Sequence record: NC_049815.1
Length of the DNA stretch: 51,012 nucleotides
Reading direction: 5' to 3' (one strand)
From: Escherichia phage tonn
The notes beneath the pieces are model-generated. The model saw only the letters and a program-made list of their open reading frames with translations. It had not been told where the DNA came from and made no database searches. This document shows positions 39,133 to 47,363 of the stretch, piece by piece (within the stretch, counting starts at the first letter, position 1; every line of letters starts with the position of its first letter). The position numbers and the translations under genes were made by a program.

Positions 39133-39424
39133 GACTTTTAACCTTTTGTGCTGTTTCTTGGTTTGCACATTATAAATGCACAAAAAAACCAGCGCAATGC
39201 TGGTTAAATCTACTTTCCGTGGTTTATGTGGAATTTGTTTAAAACTTCAATCTCTATCATCTTTTCTGCCGCTTCCTGCCTCACTTCCTTTCTTTATCCT
39301 TCTTCCTACGTCTACAGCCCAAAATAACTTACCGTCATTATAATAAAAAATATCACGCCACATGATCACATCCTTAATTAATTGTAAAGCGAAAATCCGT
39401 TTTCGCTTTAACATATTGTGCTAT

Positions 39425-41556: not shown

Positions 41557-41913
41557 TTACTGCATTGATGTAAATTGTTCCGTAAAAGTGGCTTTTACTT
41601 CCTGAACGGTTGGCGACAATGGAGTAAGGCCGACGCTACCGCTTTTCACCCTAAACAATCCAGGGCTTCCATCTGGCATGATCCACAAGAAAGGTTTTAG
41701 CCTGTGCTCATTCAGGAACTTGACAACATCTCTGTAATCAAGCCCAGCGTAAACAATGCTGAACTCTCGCCGGATTGTGTTAAAACCTCCAGATGCTACC
41801 TGTGTGTATCCGTTACCGAATGCAATCTCTCGATCGTTATTCGATGACGTCATGGCCCCGCCACCATTCTGAACCTGCGTACACCACTTAAACTGATCCA
41901 GCTTCATTATCAA
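41557..41913 (-). CDS. minor tail protein (lambda M-like)
   Basis: 118 aa; immediately downstream of tape measure gene with 4-nt overlap. Confidence 0.65.
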   Translation of the reverse strand: MIMKLDQFKWCTQVQNGGGAMTSSNNDREIAFGNGYTQVASGGFNTIRREFSIVYAGLDYRDVVKFLNEHRLKPFLWIMPDGSPGLFRVKSGSVGLTPLSPTVQEVKATFTEQFTSMQ

Positions 41914-44591
41914 CCTCGCTTGCTCATAACAAATTCGTAAACCTCGCCGCCCTGCATACAGGAACGTTTAATCATATCAGTAAAGATCATCTTAACACCA
42001 GTTTCGATGCCCTTCGGATCGTTTCCGTTAGTGATGCTAACATCAATCCCGCCGATGTTAAATTGAGGTGCTCCACCAGTTACAGCGCCACCGCCAGTAT
42101 AGCCGGAACTACCAACAACGCCGCCGTTAGCATAGCCTCGCATCATGCGGTACAAGTTTCCTACCCCGATACGCTGCGTCGCCTCCTTCGTCATGACAAA
42201 TTCACCTTTATGGACAATTCCGGCTGGCTCATACTTCCCGCCGTCTCCAGTGTATCCACCGCCAGCAAATCCGCCAATATTCTTAAGCAAGCTCCCCATC
42301 GTCCAGGTTTGACCACCCATCAGGCCAGATAACGCATTAAAGACGACCATTTTCGTGATCATCTGAATAATCATTTTGATGATAGCCGTCGAGAAGTCTT
42401 TAAAGTTTGCCTTGCCAGTAGCGATAAAATTCGCTAATTGGTTTGTAAGGCCGTTTAACGCCTCGCTTGCGATCTGCTGAACATTGCCATAGGCATTGTT
42501 TGCATCTTCCGCGAACATCTCCCATGCGTTTTTTGCTCCTGCCAACCAGTTGCCTTGAACCTCATCCTGTGTCTGATAATACTGCTTAAGTTTCGCCTCC
42601 ATTTGCTGAAAAACTTCATCGCTAACGCTTCCGCCTTGCGCCTCGTAGTCGGTGCGCAGCTTGCGTAACTCTAGCTCACGCTCGATCTGCTTTTCAGTGT
42701 AGCCAAGTTGCTTAAGGCCAAGCACATCAATAGCCGCCTGAGTTTCACGGATAAACTTAATGCTATCTTGCTCCAGCTTGTTTTTGCGCTCCTGTAAAAC
42801 AATCTGATCCCCTAGCTCCGCTTTTTGCCTTGCCATTTCAAGAACGGCTTTTTGCTCGTTTAGTAGCGCCTGTTCCGCTCCGGTCAATTTACGCTTGCTC
42901 TGCGCTTCCTCCAGGATCTCGATCTGCTTTTCGATACTCCATAATGATTTACGCTGGCGAGAAATAACATCGTTAACAGTGCGATGCTCTTTAAGCATCT
43001 CCAGTTGCGCTTTTAAAACGTACAACTCTTTATCAAGCTGCTCAGTCGGGCCGCGAACTATTCCACCTTTAGCCTCTTTCTTTTTCTGCTCCTGCTTCTT
43101 GATTTCCTCAAGCTCTTTGCGCCTAAACTCCACGTTTTCAGCCGCTCGCTTTTTCAGTTCTTCATCAGCCGAACGCGCCACATTTTTCTGATCCTCAATG
43201 GCTTTGTTTAAAGCCTCCTGTGCTGCGCGCACTCTGTTTAAGGCCAGGTTTTCTTTGTCGATTCGCTCCGCTCGTTCAGCCATGTCCTTATTCGCATCTT
43301 TTACGACCTTTCCAATGTCTTCATAAGTGTTAAGTGCAAACTTAAGCATAGGGTTAACATAGCCAAGCTCCTTACCTAACAGGCCGCCGGACGGGGAAGC
43401 GTAATCACGCTTCGCTTTCAAAACCTCATACCACGAATCGCCCAACTCAAGGACTTTGTTTTTGTGGTTTGCAATTTCGTTATTCAAGCTGACAAAGCTA
43501 GACGCGCCCTTGTACTCGTTGACTTTCTTTTTTGCGTCATCATAAGTCATGCCAACGTCAACCAGTTTTTTAATCGCCTCGCTCGCGCCGTCTTTCGTGG
43601 TGATGTAAGCCTTTGCCAGATCTTCGGCGCTTTCGCCTGTCTTGTCGGAAAGCTCCTTGATTCCTATAGCAATCTTTTCGGCAAACTCACCACTCAAGCC
43701 AGTTGTTTCCTGAACTGTTTTTTTAATTTCCTCAAGCTCTGTCTGTGCTTTGTAGGCATTATATGCAGCAATTGCCAGCGTGCCTGAAAGTAAGCCAAAC
43801 GCCACGTTTACCGGATTCAGGAAAGATAGCAACGCTTTTAAAGCATTGGATGCGCCACCAAAAGAATCCTTAATCTGTCCGCCCTGCTGGATTGCGACCA
43901 ACCAAACAGGCATTCCAGAAGCAAGTGAAGTCACCACGTCTGTGATCTGCATTGGCAATTGCGCCATTGCTTGTTTGTATTGGCCCGTAGAAATTCCAAG
44001 TTTTTGGATCTGCTTTTCCTGCTCTTTCAGCCTTGCGATGTAAGGCGCTGCCTCCTGGCTAACACCAAGCTGTGCCGCTTTCATTTCCAGCAATTCAGAC
44101 TTGCTTTTTCCGGCTGCTTCTTCCTGCTCACGCAAAGCCTGGACGAATTTTTTAGCCTCTTCCGCTGCACGCGCTTTGTTCTTTGATTCCTCAAGCGCCG
44201 CGCGGCCTTCCTCCGTCATCGCTTTTTTTGTTGCGATCAGCTTGTTTTGCTGCGTCTCAAGAATTGCCCCAAGCTCAAAAAAAGTCTGATCAGGAACAAT
44301 GCCCTTTTTCCATAGCGCATCAAGCTGTGTCGCTGCCTTTCGCAGCTTATCCATCTTTGACGCTGTGGGATCAATTGACTCCTGGATTTTCTTAAATTCT
44401 GCTTTCTGGCGCGCCAGTTCTTCGGCAAGCTGTTTTGCTTGCTGTCGGGCCACAACCTCAGAATCAACAAATTCATTAACGCTTTTTTTTGCGTCGTCGT
44501 TTGCCTTCTTGAATTGCTGCAATGATTTAACAGCATTGTTGACCTGCGACACGTCAACGCCTAGCGTTAGGCCAGCGTATTTTTCAGCCAT
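41910..44591 (-). CDS. tail tape measure protein
   Basis: 893 aa, long alpha-helical/coiled-coil charged repeats, Gly-rich C-terminal region. Confidence 0.85.
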   Translation of the reverse strand: MAEKYAGLTLGVDVSQVNNAVKSLQQFKKANDDAKKSVNEFVDSEVVARQQAKQLAEELARQKAEFKKIQESIDPTASKMDKLRKAATQLDALWKKGIVPDQTFFELGAILETQQNKLIATKKAMTEEGRAALEESKNKARAAEEAKKFVQALREQEEAAGKSKSELLEMKAAQLGVSQEAAPYIARLKEQEKQIQKLGISTGQYKQAMAQLPMQITDVVTSLASGMPVWLVAIQQGGQIKDSFGGASNALKALLSFLNPVNVAFGLLSGTLAIAAYNAYKAQTELEEIKKTVQETTGLSGEFAEKIAIGIKELSDKTGESAEDLAKAYITTKDGASEAIKKLVDVGMTYDDAKKKVNEYKGASSFVSLNNEIANHKNKVLELGDSWYEVLKAKRDYASPSGGLLGKELGYVNPMLKFALNTYEDIGKVVKDANKDMAERAERIDKENLALNRVRAAQEALNKAIEDQKNVARSADEELKKRAAENVEFRRKELEEIKKQEQKKKEAKGGIVRGPTEQLDKELYVLKAQLEMLKEHRTVNDVISRQRKSLWSIEKQIEILEEAQSKRKLTGAEQALLNEQKAVLEMARQKAELGDQIVLQERKNKLEQDSIKFIRETQAAIDVLGLKQLGYTEKQIERELELRKLRTDYEAQGGSVSDEVFQQMEAKLKQYYQTQDEVQGNWLAGAKNAWEMFAEDANNAYGNVQQIASEALNGLTNQLANFIATGKANFKDFSTAIIKMIIQMITKMVVFNALSGLMGGQTWTMGSLLKNIGGFAGGGYTGDGGKYEPAGIVHKGEFVMTKEATQRIGVGNLYRMMRGYANGGVVGSSGYTGGGAVTGGAPQFNIGGIDVSITNGNDPKGIETGVKMIFTDMIKRSCMQGGEVYEFVMSKRG

Positions 44592-44630
44592 TTTAAAACC
44601 TCCAGATATTAAAAAAGCGCCTCGCGGCGC

Positions 44631-45265
44631 TTATGTTTTGTTTGAATGAATCATTTCTAGCGCCTTTTGTTCCATGATGCGCAAATCATTTAGCGCCATC
44701 TCCCGATCCTCAATCTTGTAAATGTCAAAAAGCATAGGCAAAACGTTATAGTCGAACCCATACACACTGCCGCTAGTCGATCTCCATTGCGTCTGCATAG
44801 CGCAAAACAGATCCCAAGATTGAAACATTGATTCATCAAAAATTACCTCCGGCGGCTCCTCCCCTTCGTAGTCTGAACGGGATAGGCCGACGGCCTCTAA
44901 TTGTGCGTCAGTTGGCGGCTTGAGGTAAAACAGGTAAACCGCCCGCTTTAGTTTTTTACCCGCTGCCCCGCAAGTGCTTTCATATAATGACCAGTCAGCG
45001 ATAATGACGCAGACGGGTAATAATCCAGCAATTTAGCAACGTTTTCCTCGTTAAATTCATCTTCCAGATCCCAACCGGAAGCAAGGAAGGTGATCATTTC
45101 TACGTCGCTCATCGGCTTTTCTGCCGTGTATCGTTCGTGAATTTCGCTTGCCTTCTTGTGGCGCACGGTAAAAACAATAACTTGCTCATCACCATTTGGA
45201 AGCACGAAAGAAACAGGCAGCTTAAAATCAGGCAGTGGGCCTAACGTTAGTTTCATCTTTGCCAT
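44631..45265 (-). CDS. tail assembly chaperone GT-like fusion made by -1 programmed frameshift
   Basis: -1 frame after A_AAA_AAC continues open for ~106 codons to stop at 44631 (manually translated ...KLKRAVYLFYLKPPTDAQLEAVGLSRSDYEGEEPPEVIFDESMFQSWD...). Confidence 0.5.
44948..45265 (-). CDS. tail assembly chaperone (lambda G-like)
   Basis: 105 aa ORF directly upstream of tape measure gene; ends at slippery site. Confidence 0.7.
   Translation of the reverse strand: MAKMKLTLGPLPDFKLPVSFVLPNGDEQVIVFTVRHKKASEIHERYTAEKPMSDVEMITFLASGWDLEDEFNEENVAKLLDYYPSASLSLTGHYMKALAGQRVKN
44951..44957 (-). other. slippery heptamer A AAA AAC (programmed -1 ribosomal frameshift site)
   Basis: codons GTA AAA AAC TAA at end of the G-like ORF; X_XXY_YYZ pattern. 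Confidence 0.55.
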
Positions 45266-45277
45266 CTTAAGATCTCC

Positions 45278-45298
45278 TTATAGCACTTTTTGTTAAAA
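45278..45298 (+). promoter_or_regulatory. 21-bp motif copy in antisense orientation within the tail module
   Basis: TTATAGCACTTTTTGTTAAAA on + strand while flanking genes are on - strand. Confidence 0.35.
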
Positions 45299-45337: not shown

Positions 45338-45366
45338 GAAAAAAGGGGCGCAACGCCCCTTGTTTT
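45338..45366. terminator. rho-independent terminator immediately after major tail protein gene
   Basis: GGGGCG-caa-CGCCCC flanked by A7 and TTGTTTT. Confidence 0.6.
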
Positions 45367-46027
45367 ACTTAACGTCGGAAGGTAAGAACGTGAATCGGCC
45401 TTTCAGAGATACAGAAAGGGAAACAGTTTCCATTTCGTTCATAGTTGTTTGCGGAATGTCATTAAAAGACAATACGCCAGCCCAGCAACGCATCTCTTTA
45501 GCTTTCGGCACGTACATACGCAAAGCGGTTACGTCGCCGGATTCCTCAGCCTCGCGCAAGATCGGATAAATCGGATTATCATATTCATGCGCGAAAGTAT
45601 AGGTAAGAGAAACGGCGCTCTTGTAGGTCGGCAACTGCTGTTCCTGGTCATCAGCCAAACACTGATAAGTGTAATACTGTTGCTCGCCGCCGTCCTGCGC
45701 AAGATCCTGTACGCAAGGAACCTCTACCCAAGATTTCACCTCTCGGAAAGTTGCTGTATTAGAACCAGCCGGAAATACGTTTTGATCGATTGTGTCTACA
45801 CCTTCAAGAGTTACGCTTGCGTTATCAGATACTTCTTTTACCCGCAACACACGACTAACCAGTTTACCCCAGGAAGACGTTTCAATCAGAACATAAGCAC
45901 CTTTTTTGATCTGCTGTGAATTACTAACAGTAAAAACCGGATCTTTAGCGTTTGAAATATCAGTAGCGCTAATTGGCTCACCCATATTAACGCCGATGAA
46001 AATTTGAGAACCATTAGGCAAGTGCAT
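45365..46027 (-). CDS. major tail protein
   Basis: 220 aa; upstream of G/GT chaperone and followed by terminator, the usual arrangement for the abundant tail tube protein. Confidence 0.65.
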   Translation of the reverse strand: MHLPNGSQIFIGVNMGEPISATDISNAKDPVFTVSNSQQIKKGAYVLIETSSWGKLVSRVLRVKEVSDNASVTLEGVDTIDQNVFPAGSNTATFREVKSWVEVPCVQDLAQDGGEQQYYTYQCLADDQEQQLPTYKSAVSLTYTFAHEYDNPIYPILREAEESGDVTALRMYVPKAKEMRCWAGVLSFNDIPQTTMNEMETVSLSVSLKGRFTFLPSDVK

Positions 46028-46029
46028 GA

Positions 46030-46464
46030 TTATTCCTCCTTTGTGTCAAGCCTAACACTGAAACGGATCGGTAAGAACCAACCTGTTTCACTTTTTAGTA
46101 ATGTGTGGACCTTTGCCCCATCGCTAATATAGCCAGTTTCAAACATTCTACCATCATAGAAAAATCTCGCAATCTCTTTAGCCAGCAAACGCGCTTTATC
46201 AGTGCCGCCGCCAGGAGGCATAACAATTCCAACCTGAACCAATCCGATATAAGAAACGCATTTTCTATCAAGAGATATGCGATCTGTGTCGGCTTCCATG
46301 TATTCAAATTTTAACCACATCGAACCATCACCAGGCGGAACAAAATCAACGTTTTCATAGGCGATCTTGAATCGTGATTCATATTCCGCCGCCAGCGCCT
46401 TACGCGCCGATAGCATTAATTCATAGTGACTCATGTTGAACTCCGTGATTTTTGTGGTATCCAA
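46030..46464 (-). CDS. tail terminator / tail completion protein (putative; start probably internal)
   Basis: position immediately upstream of major tail gene. Confidence 0.45.
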   Translation of the reverse strand: MDTTKITEFNMSHYELMLSARKALAAEYESRFKIAYENVDFVPPGDGSMWLKFEYMEADTDRISLDRKCVSYIGLVQVGIVMPPGGGTDKARLLAKEIARFFYDGRMFETGYISDGAKVHTLLKSETGWFLPIRFSVRLDTKEE

Positions 46465-46930
46465 AATTTAATTCTGCATCTTTTCTTGCTTTAGCAGCCT
46501 CATCAAAGCTAACAAAGAAACCTAAGTGCAACCTCTTTTTGTTGTGCATTATTTGAGCGTACCATTTCTTGTTTTTTCGATGATAGTAAACACCGGTAAC
46601 TCCGCTTGAGTTTCTTTTGTCGATTGTTTTGTTTCTCATGTTTCCAGATCTATCAACAATCCTTAGATTCTCAATTCTGTTGTCAGTTGTGTCGTGATTA
46701 ATATGGTCAATCTCCATGCCGTCAGGAATTGGCCCGTTGTGCATCTCCCAAACTATGCGATGAACCCTAAACTGACCGCCAAACATATTAACAACAACGT
46801 ATCCGCGATTATTTACATTTCCAGCTACGTCGCCAACAGAACAAGGATACTTACATTTTGACTGATCTTTAATCTGAATCTTCCAGTAAATAAGTCCATC
46901 TTTGTATGTGAATATATCATCATAGTGCAT
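46421..46930 (-). CDS. HNH homing endonuclease with AP2-like DNA-binding domain
   Basis: HNH block IDHINHDTTDNRIENLRIV...N, and YYHRKNKKWYAQI...LGFF AP2-like block; overlaps both neighbours. Confidence 0.8.
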   Translation of the reverse strand: MHYDDIFTYKDGLIYWKIQIKDQSKCKYPCSVGDVAGNVNNRGYVVVNMFGGQFRVHRIVWEMHNGPIPDGMEIDHINHDTTDNRIENLRIVDRSGNMRNKTIDKRNSSGVTGVYYHRKNKKWYAQIMHNKKRLHLGFFVSFDEAAKARKDAELNFGYHKNHGVQHESL

Positions 46931-47363
46931 TTTTATCCCTCGACTCTTTTATTGCTTCAGCCATATAAGATCTCAACTTAACCGCGACAATCCCAAGCAC
47001 ACCCGCTGGCGCTTGTTTTGAATGACCGTACTCAAGTACGTTAGCGTAAATAAGCATATTTGAAAAATAAATGGCCCTTACTGCGCCGCCACCTCGTAAC
47101 ATTGCGTATATAGCTCGCTTACCTTCCGCGATCGTTTTGTCGCCGTGCTTATCGTACTGGTTAAGCGCATACAATGGCGGCTTGTTTGCTGTTACCTGCC
47201 AGTTTGCACGGTAACGACCAGTATCAACCGGAGAACGCTTAACAAGGTCTGTATGCACTTTTTCGGCGAATAACTCCACGCAATCCTTTAGTCCACTATC
47301 AACGGCGTTTATCCACGCATCAATGTTGCCGTGAAATTCCCTTATCGTATAGTTTTTAGCCAT
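46920..47363 (-). CDS. head-tail joining / tail completion protein (putative)
   Basis: 147 aa; position in connector module. Confidence 0.45.
   Translation of the reverse strand: MAKNYTIREFHGNIDAWINAVDSGLKDCVELFAEKVHTDLVKRSPVDTGRYRANWQVTANKPPLYALNQYDKHGDKTIAEGKRAIYAMLRGGGAVRAIYFSNMLIYANVLEYGHSKQAPAGVLGIVAVKLRSYMAEAIKESRDKNAL

What the first reader, a model, noticed from the sequence alone, without database searches (positions are those of the whole stretch)
44631..45265. Programmed -1 frameshift (A AAA AAC) producing a G/GT-type tail assembly chaperone
The 105-aa ORF upstream of the tape measure gene ends ...GTA AAA AAC TAA. The heptamer A_AAA_AAC (44957..44951 on the - strand) is a classical slippery site, and the -1 frame is open from there through the separately listed 65-aa ORF to a stop at 44631, giving a ~210-aa fusion. 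This is the conserved G/GT arrangement of siphovirus tail assembly; a hairpin with T-run (44614..44634) follows the fusion stop.
Basis: partly seen in the sequence, partly recalled or inferred. Interest (0 to 1): 0.5.

Follow-up and report, generated by a model that had tools for sequence, protein, structure and literature searches.

The report
Tail chaperone frameshift in T1-like phage
This is the usual programmed −1 ribosomal frameshift that lets a T1-like E. coli phage make a short and a long form of its tail assembly chaperone from one gene; it is real and well supported, but already known in this phage family.

Summary
The window is a Warwickvirus (Drexlerviridae, T1-like) coliphage. The 105-aa ORF 45265..44948 (−) matches Pfam Phage_TAC_4 and ends GTA AAA AAC TAA. 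The heptamer A_AAA_AAC lies at 44957..44951, in the X_XXY_YYZ phase. The −1 frame stays open to the stop at 44633..44631, which gives a 211-aa fusion whose C-terminal part matches DUF1799.

Comparative evidence for the frameshift is strong:
- The frame under purifying selection switches from 0 to −1 at the heptamer.
- The first 41 post-slip codons are conserved as protein but have no ATG/GTG/TTG start.
- In 76 of 78 metagenomic relatives, some only about 30% identical, the second ORF is in the −1 frame.
- The site varies while keeping the slippery pattern: A_AAA_AAC, T_TTA_AAC, G_GGA_AAC, G_GGA_AAG, A_AAG_GGT.

No conserved RNA stimulator was found. The heptamer always abuts the stop codon. 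The hairpin with a T-run after the fusion stop is a conserved terminator, annotated as such in T1.

The arrangement works like lambda G/GT but shows no sequence similarity to lambda G or T. The frameshift is already annotated or described in related T1-like phages (LL5, Stevie, U136B, Solomon). It is missing from the closest GenBank records. Verdict: real, ordinary, low novelty.

The parts
45274..45279 (-). Shine-Dalgarno-like AAGGAG, 8 nt upstream of the chaperone ATG
   Evidence: Read directly from the sequence.
44948..45265 (-). G-like tail assembly (tape measure) chaperone ORF, 105 aa plus TAA stop. This is the product of standard decoding.
   Evidence: ORF list. Pfam Phage_TAC_4, E=5e-31, full length. 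The exact protein is on record as TfmA / tape measure chaperone of Warwickvirus.
44951..44957 (-). Slippery heptamer A_AAA_AAC. It spans the last two sense codons of G and directly abuts the TAA stop at 44950..44948.
   Evidence: Sequence. Same position in relatives, with variants T_TTA_AAC, G_GGA_AAC, G_GGA_AAG and A_AAG_GGT.
44631..44951 (-). T-like extension read in the −1 frame: 106 codons (LKRAVYL...HSNKT) plus TAA stop at 44633..44631. It has no start codon before ATG 44828.
   Evidence: Translation. Pfam DUF1799, E=1.5e-12, over extension residues 23-101. pN/pS 0.23 in the −1 frame against 1.4-1.6 in the other frames. Start-codon survey. AF2 model pLDDT 79, matching the C-terminal halves of annotated fused tape measure chaperones.
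44631..45265 (-). Full extent of the predicted 211-aa trans-frame GT-like fusion (G residues 1-105 plus 106 residues from the −1 frame).
   Evidence: PHROG 17368 matches the fusion end to end, 1-211 of 213, E=6e-99. The orthologous joined CDS is annotated in phage LL5.
44611..44632 (-). Intrinsic-terminator-like hairpin (AAGCGCC GCGA GGCGCTT) with T-run, between the fusion stop and the tape measure gene RBS.
   Evidence: Terminator scan. Kept with different stem sequences in 67 of 91 relatives. Annotated as a rho-independent terminator at the same position in T1.
45343..45361 (-). Intrinsic-terminator-like hairpin after the tail tube gene, upstream of the chaperone gene.
   Evidence: Terminator scan. 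The equivalent terminator is annotated in T1.
45365..46027 (-). Tail tube (major tail) protein gene, upstream neighbour. Presumed binding partner of the T-like domain.
   Evidence: Pfam Phage_tail_3, E=6e-63.
41910..44591 (-). Tape measure protein gene, downstream neighbour. Presumed binding partner of the G-like domain.
   Evidence: Pfam TMP_2 and Tape_meas_lam_C.

Best explanation
A programmed −1 ribosomal frameshift on A_AAA_AAC (44957..44951) at the very end of the tail assembly chaperone gene of a T1-like (Warwickvirus) coliphage.

Most ribosomes terminate at the adjacent TAA and make the 105-aa G-like chaperone. A small fraction slips back one base: tRNA-Lys moves from AAA to AAA and tRNA-Asn from AAC to AAA. 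Those ribosomes read CTA AAG CGG... in the −1 frame and make a 211-aa GT-like fusion with a DUF1799 C-terminal domain.

By analogy with lambda G/GT, many G copies would coat the tape measure protein, and the rare fusion would use its T-like domain to recruit the tail tube protein. Neither protein would end up in the virion.

No RNA stimulator appears to be involved. The low intrinsic efficiency of the heptamer in E. coli, possibly modulated by the abutting stop codon, would set the G:GT ratio. Terminators on both sides of the gene probably grade transcription from tube protein to chaperones to tape measure.

Shown here: the sequence anatomy, the frame switch of purifying selection, conservation of the signal, and family assignments. 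Inferred: slippage efficiency, the protein-protein roles, and terminator function.
For: - **Anatomy.**
- **Family matches.** Phage_TAC_4 plus DUF1799. The DUF1799 match starts 18 codons before the first ATG of the −1 frame.
- **No start codon.** There is no ATG/GTG/TTG in the 68 open −1 codons before ATG 44828. Most relatives also lack any start before codon 41.
- **Conservation from the slip site.** The post-slip residues LKRAVYL are invariant or nearly so.
- **Frame switch of selection.** In the 20 codons upstream, pN/pS is 0.45 in frame 0 against 1.48 in frame −1. In the 33 codons downstream, it is 1.55 in frame 0 against 0.23 in frame −1.
- **Other frames closed.** Frames 0 and +1 downstream carry stops at varying positions in all 13 genomes.
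- **Relatives.** In 76 of 78 IMG/VR relatives, down to about 30% identity, T is in the −1 frame. A phased slippery heptamer abutting the stop is present in 68 of them, in four sequence forms; a fifth form, A_AAG_GGT, occurs in phage WaterSpirit.
- **Profile and annotation support.** PHROG 17368 covers the fusion end to end. The LL5 record annotates the joined frameshift product. The T-domain model matches the C-terminal halves of fused 'tape measure chaperone' entries from phages Solomon, Scapp and Shivani.
[quoted passage not shown] U136B chaperone annotated by hand via a slippery sequence (PMC8104045). Lambda G:GT about 30:1 and its roles (PMC5009743). A_AAA_AAC is a low-efficiency heptamer in E. 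coli but is a proven frameshift site in an IS element (IS1-type, by my reading) (PMC4066793).
Against: - No protein-level observation of the fusion exists for this phage. The exact fusion sequence is absent from a 15-billion-protein collection.
- A_AAA_AAC is a poor shifter in E. coli, and no conserved stimulatory hairpin or SD-like element was found. The efficiency may therefore be very low.
- Eight relatives carry imperfect heptamers, A_AAG_GTC or A_AAA_GTT. These require a single-tRNA slip or a less favourable re-pairing.
- There is no sequence similarity to lambda G or T, so the assigned protein roles rest on analogy.
Confidence: 0.9

Rival explanations
1. No frameshift. The downstream reading frame is an independent small gene translated from ATG 44828 into a 65-aa protein, as several GenBank records annotate it.
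For: The 65-aa ORF is annotated separately in JLBYU16 and other records. M147 of the fusion (the ATG) is invariant in the 13-genome alignment.
Against: - The 41 codons upstream of that ATG are under strong purifying selection in the same frame (pN/pS 0.23). They belong to the DUF1799 and PHROG 680 profiles.
- No SD lies within 5-10 nt of ATG 44828; the GGAGG lies 17 nt upstream.
- Gene callers pick at least six different starts in relatives, giving 63-136 aa.
- Conservation begins exactly at the heptamer.
Confidence: 0.04
2. The fusion is made by transcriptional slippage. RNA polymerase adds one A in the A6 run, so a fraction of mRNAs encode ...VKK-LKR... in one continuous frame.
For: The site contains a homopolymeric A6 run. 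One extra A would put T in frame. Two metagenomic contigs show length variation in this run (A5), though that is probably sequencing error.
Against: - Homologous sites in relatives are G_GGA_AAC, T_TTA_AAC, G_GGA_AAG and A_AAG_GGT. These keep the tRNA re-pairing pattern but lack any long homopolymer.
- Known bacterial slippage sites use longer runs, about 8-9 or more (my own knowledge; the topic is reviewed in PMC5009743).
- The phase of the heptamer relative to the G frame is strictly conserved, which matters for ribosomes and not for RNA polymerase.
Confidence: 0.04
3. Termination-reinitiation. Ribosomes terminate at TAA 44950..44948 and restart nearby in the −1 frame, producing a free T-like protein and no fusion.
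For: The stop always abuts the start of the conserved −1 coding region. A few relatives have a GTG or ATG 4-7 codons after the stop (EC3a, IME347).
Against: - The window and most relatives have no canonical start within 41 codons of the stop.
- The first post-slip residues L-K-R-A are invariant or nearly so, which is not expected upstream of a restart codon.
- The slippery pattern is maintained through compensated changes, which reinitiation would not require.
Confidence: 0.02

Closest known systems
Tape measure chaperone frameshift of T1-like phages (Drexlerviridae): joined CDS in Escherichia phage LL5 (MH491968), Citrobacter phage Stevie (PMC4319613), Escherichia phage U136B (PMC8104045), Klebsiella phage Solomon (A0A873WVD6)
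   Same: These are the same protein family, and the T1-like ones are most likely orthologues (LL5: 74% protein identity to the fusion, 69.6% at DNA level). They share the gene position. LL5 has the same A_AAA_AAC heptamer abutting a TAA stop, the same −1 extension and the same downstream terminator. The other three were seen only through their papers or a fused database entry.
   Different: No biological difference was found. The only difference is in annotation. The closest records (tinuso, swan01, SECphi27, JLBYU16) list G alone or two separate ORFs, and the exact fusion sequence is not in the protein collection.
Phage lambda G / GT tail assembly chaperones (Levin, Hendrix & Casjens 1993; Xu, Hendrix & Duda 2004, 2013, 2014)
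   Same: Two overlapping ORFs lie between the major tail and tape measure genes. [quoted passage not shown] No RNA stimulator is known. The expected outcome is a low fusion:short ratio.
   Different: - There is no detectable sequence similarity: lambda is Phage_TAC_2 plus Phage_tail_T, this locus is Phage_TAC_4 plus DUF1799.
- The lambda heptamer is G_GGA_AAG, with 5 codons before the G stop. Here it is A_AAA_AAC directly abutting the stop.
- Lambda T overlaps H. Here a terminator hairpin separates T from the tape measure gene.
IS1 insA-insB' −1 frameshift on A_AAA_AAC
   Same: The same heptamer is decoded by E. coli ribosomes, with low efficiency and no established stimulator, to set a low level of a fusion protein (PMC4066793).
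   Different: The proteins are unrelated (a transposase, not a tail chaperone), and the IS1 site is not placed against the zero-frame stop in the same way (my own knowledge, not tested here).

Membership tests
G/GT-type tail assembly chaperone pair with conserved programmed frameshift (Xu, Hendrix & Duda 2004) | Two overlapping ORFs located between the major tail (tube) protein gene and the tape measure protein gene | tested here: met
   Phage_tail_3 gene at 45365..46027 and the TMP_2 / Tape_meas_lam_C gene at 41910..44591 flank the pair.
G/GT-type tail assembly chaperone pair with conserved programmed frameshift (Xu, Hendrix & Duda 2004) | Second ORF in a different frame (usually −1), lacking its own credible start and RBS, yet conserved as protein | tested here: met
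   −1 frame with no ATG/GTG/TTG for 68 codons. pN/pS 0.23 in the −1 frame after the heptamer. −1 arrangement in 76 of 78 relatives.
G/GT-type tail assembly chaperone pair with conserved programmed frameshift (Xu, Hendrix & Duda 2004) | Slippery sequence in the overlap, in the phase that allows tRNA re-pairing, conserved among homologues | tested here: met
   A_AAA_AAC at 44957..44951. Conserved, or replaced by T_TTA_AAC, G_GGA_AAC, G_GGA_AAG or A_AAG_GGT. Eight relatives have imperfect heptamers.
G/GT-type tail assembly chaperone pair with conserved programmed frameshift (Xu, Hendrix & Duda 2004) | Fusion protein actually synthesised at a low fixed ratio to the short product | not testable with these tools
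   Needs mass spectrometry, western blot or a reporter assay.
G/GT-type tail assembly chaperone pair with conserved programmed frameshift (Xu, Hendrix & Duda 2004) | G part binds the tape measure protein, T part binds the major tail protein, both required for tail assembly and absent from virions | not testable with these tools
   Inferred by analogy with lambda (PMC5009743).
Pfam Phage_TAC_4 (PF08748) tail assembly chaperone | Score above the Pfam gathering threshold over the full model | tested here: met
   107.9 bits against a cut-off of 21.1; residues 1-105 on model positions 1-124.
Pfam DUF1799 (PF08809) | Score above the Pfam gathering threshold | tested here: met
   48 bits against a cut-off of 26; extension residues 23-101 on model positions 3-80.
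Lambda gpG (Phage_TAC_2) and gpT (Phage_tail_T) sequence families | Detectable sequence or profile similarity to lambda G or T | tested here: not met
   hhalign probability 0.1% against G and 0.7% against T. The lambda proteins hit different Pfam families.
Stimulated −1 PRF signals (dnaX / IS3-type) | Conserved downstream hairpin or pseudoknot 5-9 nt after the heptamer, or an upstream SD-like element | tested here: not met
   - A GGCGGUUU/AAGCCGCC stem 7 nt downstream exists in the window (z = −1.26).
- RNAalifold finds no consensus structure in 13 relatives.
- The named stem shows one compensated change in one sequence, 3-4 sequences broken at four of its eight pairs, and no excess over shuffles.
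- No conserved SD-like motif lies upstream.
Transcriptional slippage sites | Long homopolymer run conserved among homologues | tested here: not met
   The window has only A6. Homologues use GGGAAAC, TTTAAAC and AAAGGGT.
Intrinsic (rho-independent) terminator | GC-rich hairpin followed by a T-run, conserved in position with compensatory stem changes | tested here: met
   Found by the scan. Six or more different stem sequences occur at the same position in 67 of 91 relatives. Annotated as a terminator in T1. Termination activity was not tested.

The most novel reading that the evidence does not exclude
In this chaperone family the slippery heptamer directly abuts the zero-frame stop codon in all 76 loci with the −1 arrangement. 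This holds across five heptamer types and all three stop codons, with no conserved RNA stimulator. Lambda, by contrast, has five codons between the two.

The most novel reading is that the stop codon is itself part of the recoding signal, a 'shifty stop'. Slow release-factor decoding would give the tRNAs time to slip, so the G:GT ratio would be tuned by termination kinetics and could respond to host RF1/RF2 levels.

The alternative is that adjacency only reflects selection for G to be exactly the N-terminal module of GT.
Probability: 0.25. Interest if true: 0.35.

Novelty: already known. Interest (0 to 1): 0.15.

Why it matters
- **Annotation.** The closest GenBank and RefSeq records (tinuso, swan01, SECphi27, JLBYU phages) list only the short chaperone, or two unrelated-looking small ORFs often mislabelled 'tail length tape measure protein'. 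The 211-aa trans-frame product is absent from a 15-billion-protein collection. Recognising the frameshift gives the correct gene model for a tail assembly protein likely to be essential in Warwickvirus phages, which are commonly isolated as candidate therapeutic coliphages.
- **Biology.** It adds no new principle. It is another instance of the conserved tail chaperone frameshift.
- **Modest added value.** The family-wide survey shows that the slip site always abuts the stop codon and lacks RNA stimulators. That makes it a clean natural set for testing stop-codon effects on −1 frameshifting.

Tried and rejected
- **Downstream stimulatory RNA structure.** A stem 7 nt after the heptamer folds in the window. 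It is not conserved: RNAalifold gives no consensus in 13 relatives, and pair counts show no meaningful covariation. Rejected as a conserved element.
- **Upstream SD-like stimulator.** The G-rich stretch upstream follows the conserved A-G-Q-R codons and is not kept as an SD-like motif in relatives.
- **Sequence homology to lambda G and T.** None was found by profile comparison.
- **Solved-structure relatives.** None by sequence for the fusion profile. None by fold for the T-domain model.
- **Folding the fusion protein.** Only the T extension was modelled.
- **Frame-0 49-aa ORF 44839..44690 with a well-spaced GGAGG.** It is interrupted by stops in most relatives, and its SD-like and ATG bases are forced by the conserved PEVIFDES codons of the −1 frame. 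Spurious.
- **Independent initiation, reinitiation and transcriptional slippage.** Considered and rejected as main mechanisms; see the rival explanations.
- **Contigs L042 and L043, the two exceptions to the −1 rule.** They carry A5C instead of A6C, and L043 has further frame breaks. Most likely homopolymer sequencing errors.
- In the output the labels of the 0 and +1 frames were swapped. The analysis was redone with correct labels.

Full report
**Identity of the window.** The 1.1 kb around the finding is 100% identical to Escherichia phage tinuso and several other Warwickvirus phages (Drexlerviridae, Tempevirinae; T1-like siphophages of E. coli). Pfam matches give a lambda-like order of tail genes on the − strand:
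- HK97-gp10-like tail completion gene;
- an inserted HNH endonuclease gene;
- tail terminator;
- tail tube protein (45365..46027, Phage_tail_3);
- the 105-aa ORF of the finding;
- tape measure protein (41910..44591, TMP_2 plus Tape_meas_lam_C);
- M-, L-, K-, I- and J-like tip proteins.

**Check of the observation.** On the − strand the ORF 45265..44948 ends ...GGG CAG CGG GTA AAA AAC TAA. The heptamer A_AAA_AAC is at 44957..44951, in the phase X_XXY_YYZ relative to that ORF. The −1 frame is open from 27 codons upstream of the stop, runs through the listed 65-aa ORF (ATG 44828) and ends at TAA 44633..44631. A tandem −1 slip gives a 211-aa product with the junction ...AGQRVKN|LKRAVYLFYLKPPTD.... 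The hairpin AAGCGCC-GCGA-GGCGCTT (44632..44615) with its T-run is found by the terminator scan. One phased heptamer in a 28-codon overlap would occur by chance about once in ten (my estimate), so the argument has to rest on comparative data.

**What the two parts are.** The 105-aa protein is a full-length match to Pfam Phage_TAC_4 (E=5e-31). The −1 extension matches DUF1799 (E=1.5e-12) over residues 23-101, so the domain begins 18 codons before the first ATG in that frame. PHROG 17368, a 213-position profile, matches the predicted fusion from end to end (E=6e-99). Fused versions of this protein must therefore already exist in phage annotations. An AlphaFold2 model of the extension (18-sequence alignment, pLDDT 79) has a less confident N-terminal 40 residues. 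These are followed by a confident helix, β-hairpin, helix and long helix. The model matches no solved structure. It does match the C-terminal halves of fused 'tape measure chaperone' entries: Klebsiella phage Solomon (210 aa), Serratia phage Scapp (236 aa) and Salmonella phage Shivani (277 aa).

**Evidence that the −1 frame is translated from the heptamer onward.**
1. In the window there is no ATG, GTG or TTG in the 68 open −1 codons before ATG 44828. Six of the twelve diverse Drexlerviridae relatives likewise have none before codon 41.
2. Those 41 codons are highly conserved as protein (LKRAVYL.YQKPPTD.EL..VGL.R.DYEGEEP.E.IFDE.M). L106, R108 and A109 are invariant from the first post-slip codon.
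3. Across 13 genomes the frame under purifying selection switches at the heptamer. In the 20 codons upstream, pN/pS is 0.45 in frame 0 and 1.48 in frame −1. In the 33 codons downstream, it is 1.55 in frame 0, 1.44 in frame +1 and 0.23 in frame −1 (one search gave the same result with two labels swapped).
4. Downstream, frames 0 and +1 carry stop codons at varying positions in every genome, and only the −1 frame is always open.
5. Gene callers give the 'T' ORF lengths of 63 to 136 aa with at least six different starts. This is what one expects when there is no real start.

**Evidence that the heptamer is the signal.** In twelve annotated relatives from six or more genera or subfamilies the site is A_AAA_AAC directly before the stop in ten. 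It is A_AAG_GGT in WaterSpirit and the imperfect A_AAG_GTC in Jk06. A scan of IMG/VR gave 78 loci, down to about 30% identity. The second ORF is in the −1 frame in 76 of them. The heptamers are A_AAA_AAC (most), T_TTA_AAC, G_GGA_AAC and G_GGA_AAG. Eight loci carry A_AAG_GTC or A_AAA_GTT. The nucleotide sequence changes while the tRNA re-pairing pattern and phase stay the same. Ribosomal slippage predicts this; transcriptional slippage on an A-run does not. The two exceptions (L042, L043) have A5C instead of A6C, and L043 has other frame breaks, so homopolymer sequencing errors are likely.

**Stimulators.** A stem (GGCGGUUU/AAGCCGCC) starts 7 nt after the heptamer in the window, but the fold is not unusual (z = −1.26). 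RNAalifold finds no consensus structure in 13 relatives. The named stem shows one compensated change in one sequence, 3-4 sequences broken at four of its eight pairs, and no excess over shuffles. No SD-like motif is conserved upstream. The only constant context feature is the stop codon (TAA, TGA or TAG) immediately 3' of the heptamer, present in all 76 loci. In lambda, five codons separate G_GGA_AAG from the G stop. [quoted passage not shown] A low efficiency suits a chaperone pair whose lambda counterpart works at about 30:1 (PMC5009743).

**The hairpin after the fusion stop.** It is terminator-like. It lies at the position annotated as a rho-independent terminator in phage T1. It is kept in 67 of 91 relatives with at least six different stem sequences (GCGCC/GGCGC, GAGCGCC/GGCGCTC, GCCGCC/GGCGG, CCTCC/GGAGG, CCCGC/GCGGG, GCCCC/GGGGC). 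This is good evidence for a conserved structure. A second terminator follows the tail tube gene (45361..45343). The likely role, which is inferred, is graded transcription: tube protein, then chaperones, then tape measure. The hairpin lies after the fusion stop, so it is not a frameshift stimulator.

**Comparison with what is known.** The arrangement works like lambda G/GT. It is not a sequence relative of it: profile comparison with lambda G and T gives probabilities below 1%, and the lambda proteins belong to Phage_TAC_2 and Phage_tail_T. Within the T1-like phages the frameshift is already known:
- The LL5 record carries a joined 'tapemeasure chaperone protein frameshift product' at the orthologous site.
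- The U136B announcement describes manual annotation of the chaperone via a slippery sequence (PMC8104045).

The closest records to the window do not annotate it. Tinuso and swan01 list G only; SECphi27 and JLBYU16 list two separate ORFs. The exact 211-aa fusion, with either Asn or Lys at the junction, is absent from the protein collection, whereas G and the 65-aa ORF are present.

**Verdict.** The mechanism, a −1 tandem slip on A_AAA_AAC giving a minor GT-like fusion, is very likely (about 0.9). The fusion has not been observed directly. The protein roles, G on the tape measure and T on the tube protein, are by analogy. Rivals are each unlikely for the reasons given under rival explanations: independent initiation at ATG 44828, transcriptional slippage, and termination-reinitiation. 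The feature is ordinary and already known for this phage family, and its practical value is a corrected gene model. The one mildly interesting point is the invariable contact between slip site and stop codon, which could mean that termination kinetics help set the ratio.

Noticed in passing
window 46421..46930 (−): An HNH_3 + AP2 homing-endonuclease gene is inserted between the tail completion gene (46920..47363) and the tail terminator gene (46030..46464). Only 4 of 94 matching phage records (BEK12B, BEK7, BEK1-23, BEC3; about 95.5% identity) carry it. Tinuso, vojen and most others join the two tail genes directly.
   Followed up: partly
window 45343..45361 and 44611..44632 (−): The chaperone gene is bracketed by two intrinsic-terminator-like hairpins. 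Both positions are annotated as rho-independent terminators in T1. This suggests stepwise attenuation of transcription from tail tube to chaperones to tape measure.
   Followed up: partly
window 44948..44957 (−); loci L017-L094: In all 76 relatives with the −1 arrangement, the slippery heptamer directly abuts the zero-frame stop codon (TAA, TGA or TAG). In lambda five codons intervene. A possible role of the stop in the recoding signal was not tested.
   Followed up: partly
L058, L060, L065 (Rogunavirus-like) and L069-L071: These relatives carry imperfect heptamers, A_AAG_GTC and A_AAA_GTT, at the same position. They would require a single tRNA-Lys slip or poor A-site re-pairing. Whether they frameshift as efficiently is unknown.
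   Followed up: no
L042 and L043 (IMG/VR contigs): The A-run at the slip site is A5 instead of A6, which puts T in the +1 frame. L043 has further frame breaks in G. These are probably homopolymer sequencing errors and not biology.
   Followed up: partly
window 44690..44839 (−): A 49-aa frame-0 ORF with a well-spaced GGAGG lies inside the T-coding region. It is broken by stop codons in most relatives, and its signals are by-products of the conserved PEVIFDES codons. Spurious.
   Followed up: yes
window 39247..39414 (−): A 55-aa ORF between the I-like and J-like tail tip genes has no Pfam match. Its sequence (…DIFYYNDGKLFW…) loosely recalls the N-terminus of the HNH endonuclease at 46421..46930, so it could be a remnant. 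This was not tested further.
   Followed up: partly
search results: About 20 GenBank records named 'Campylobacter phage' (host C. jejuni) match this T1-like coliphage DNA at 71-74% identity over the chaperone genes. That is unexpected for the stated host and may reflect mislabelled or contaminating phages.
   Followed up: no
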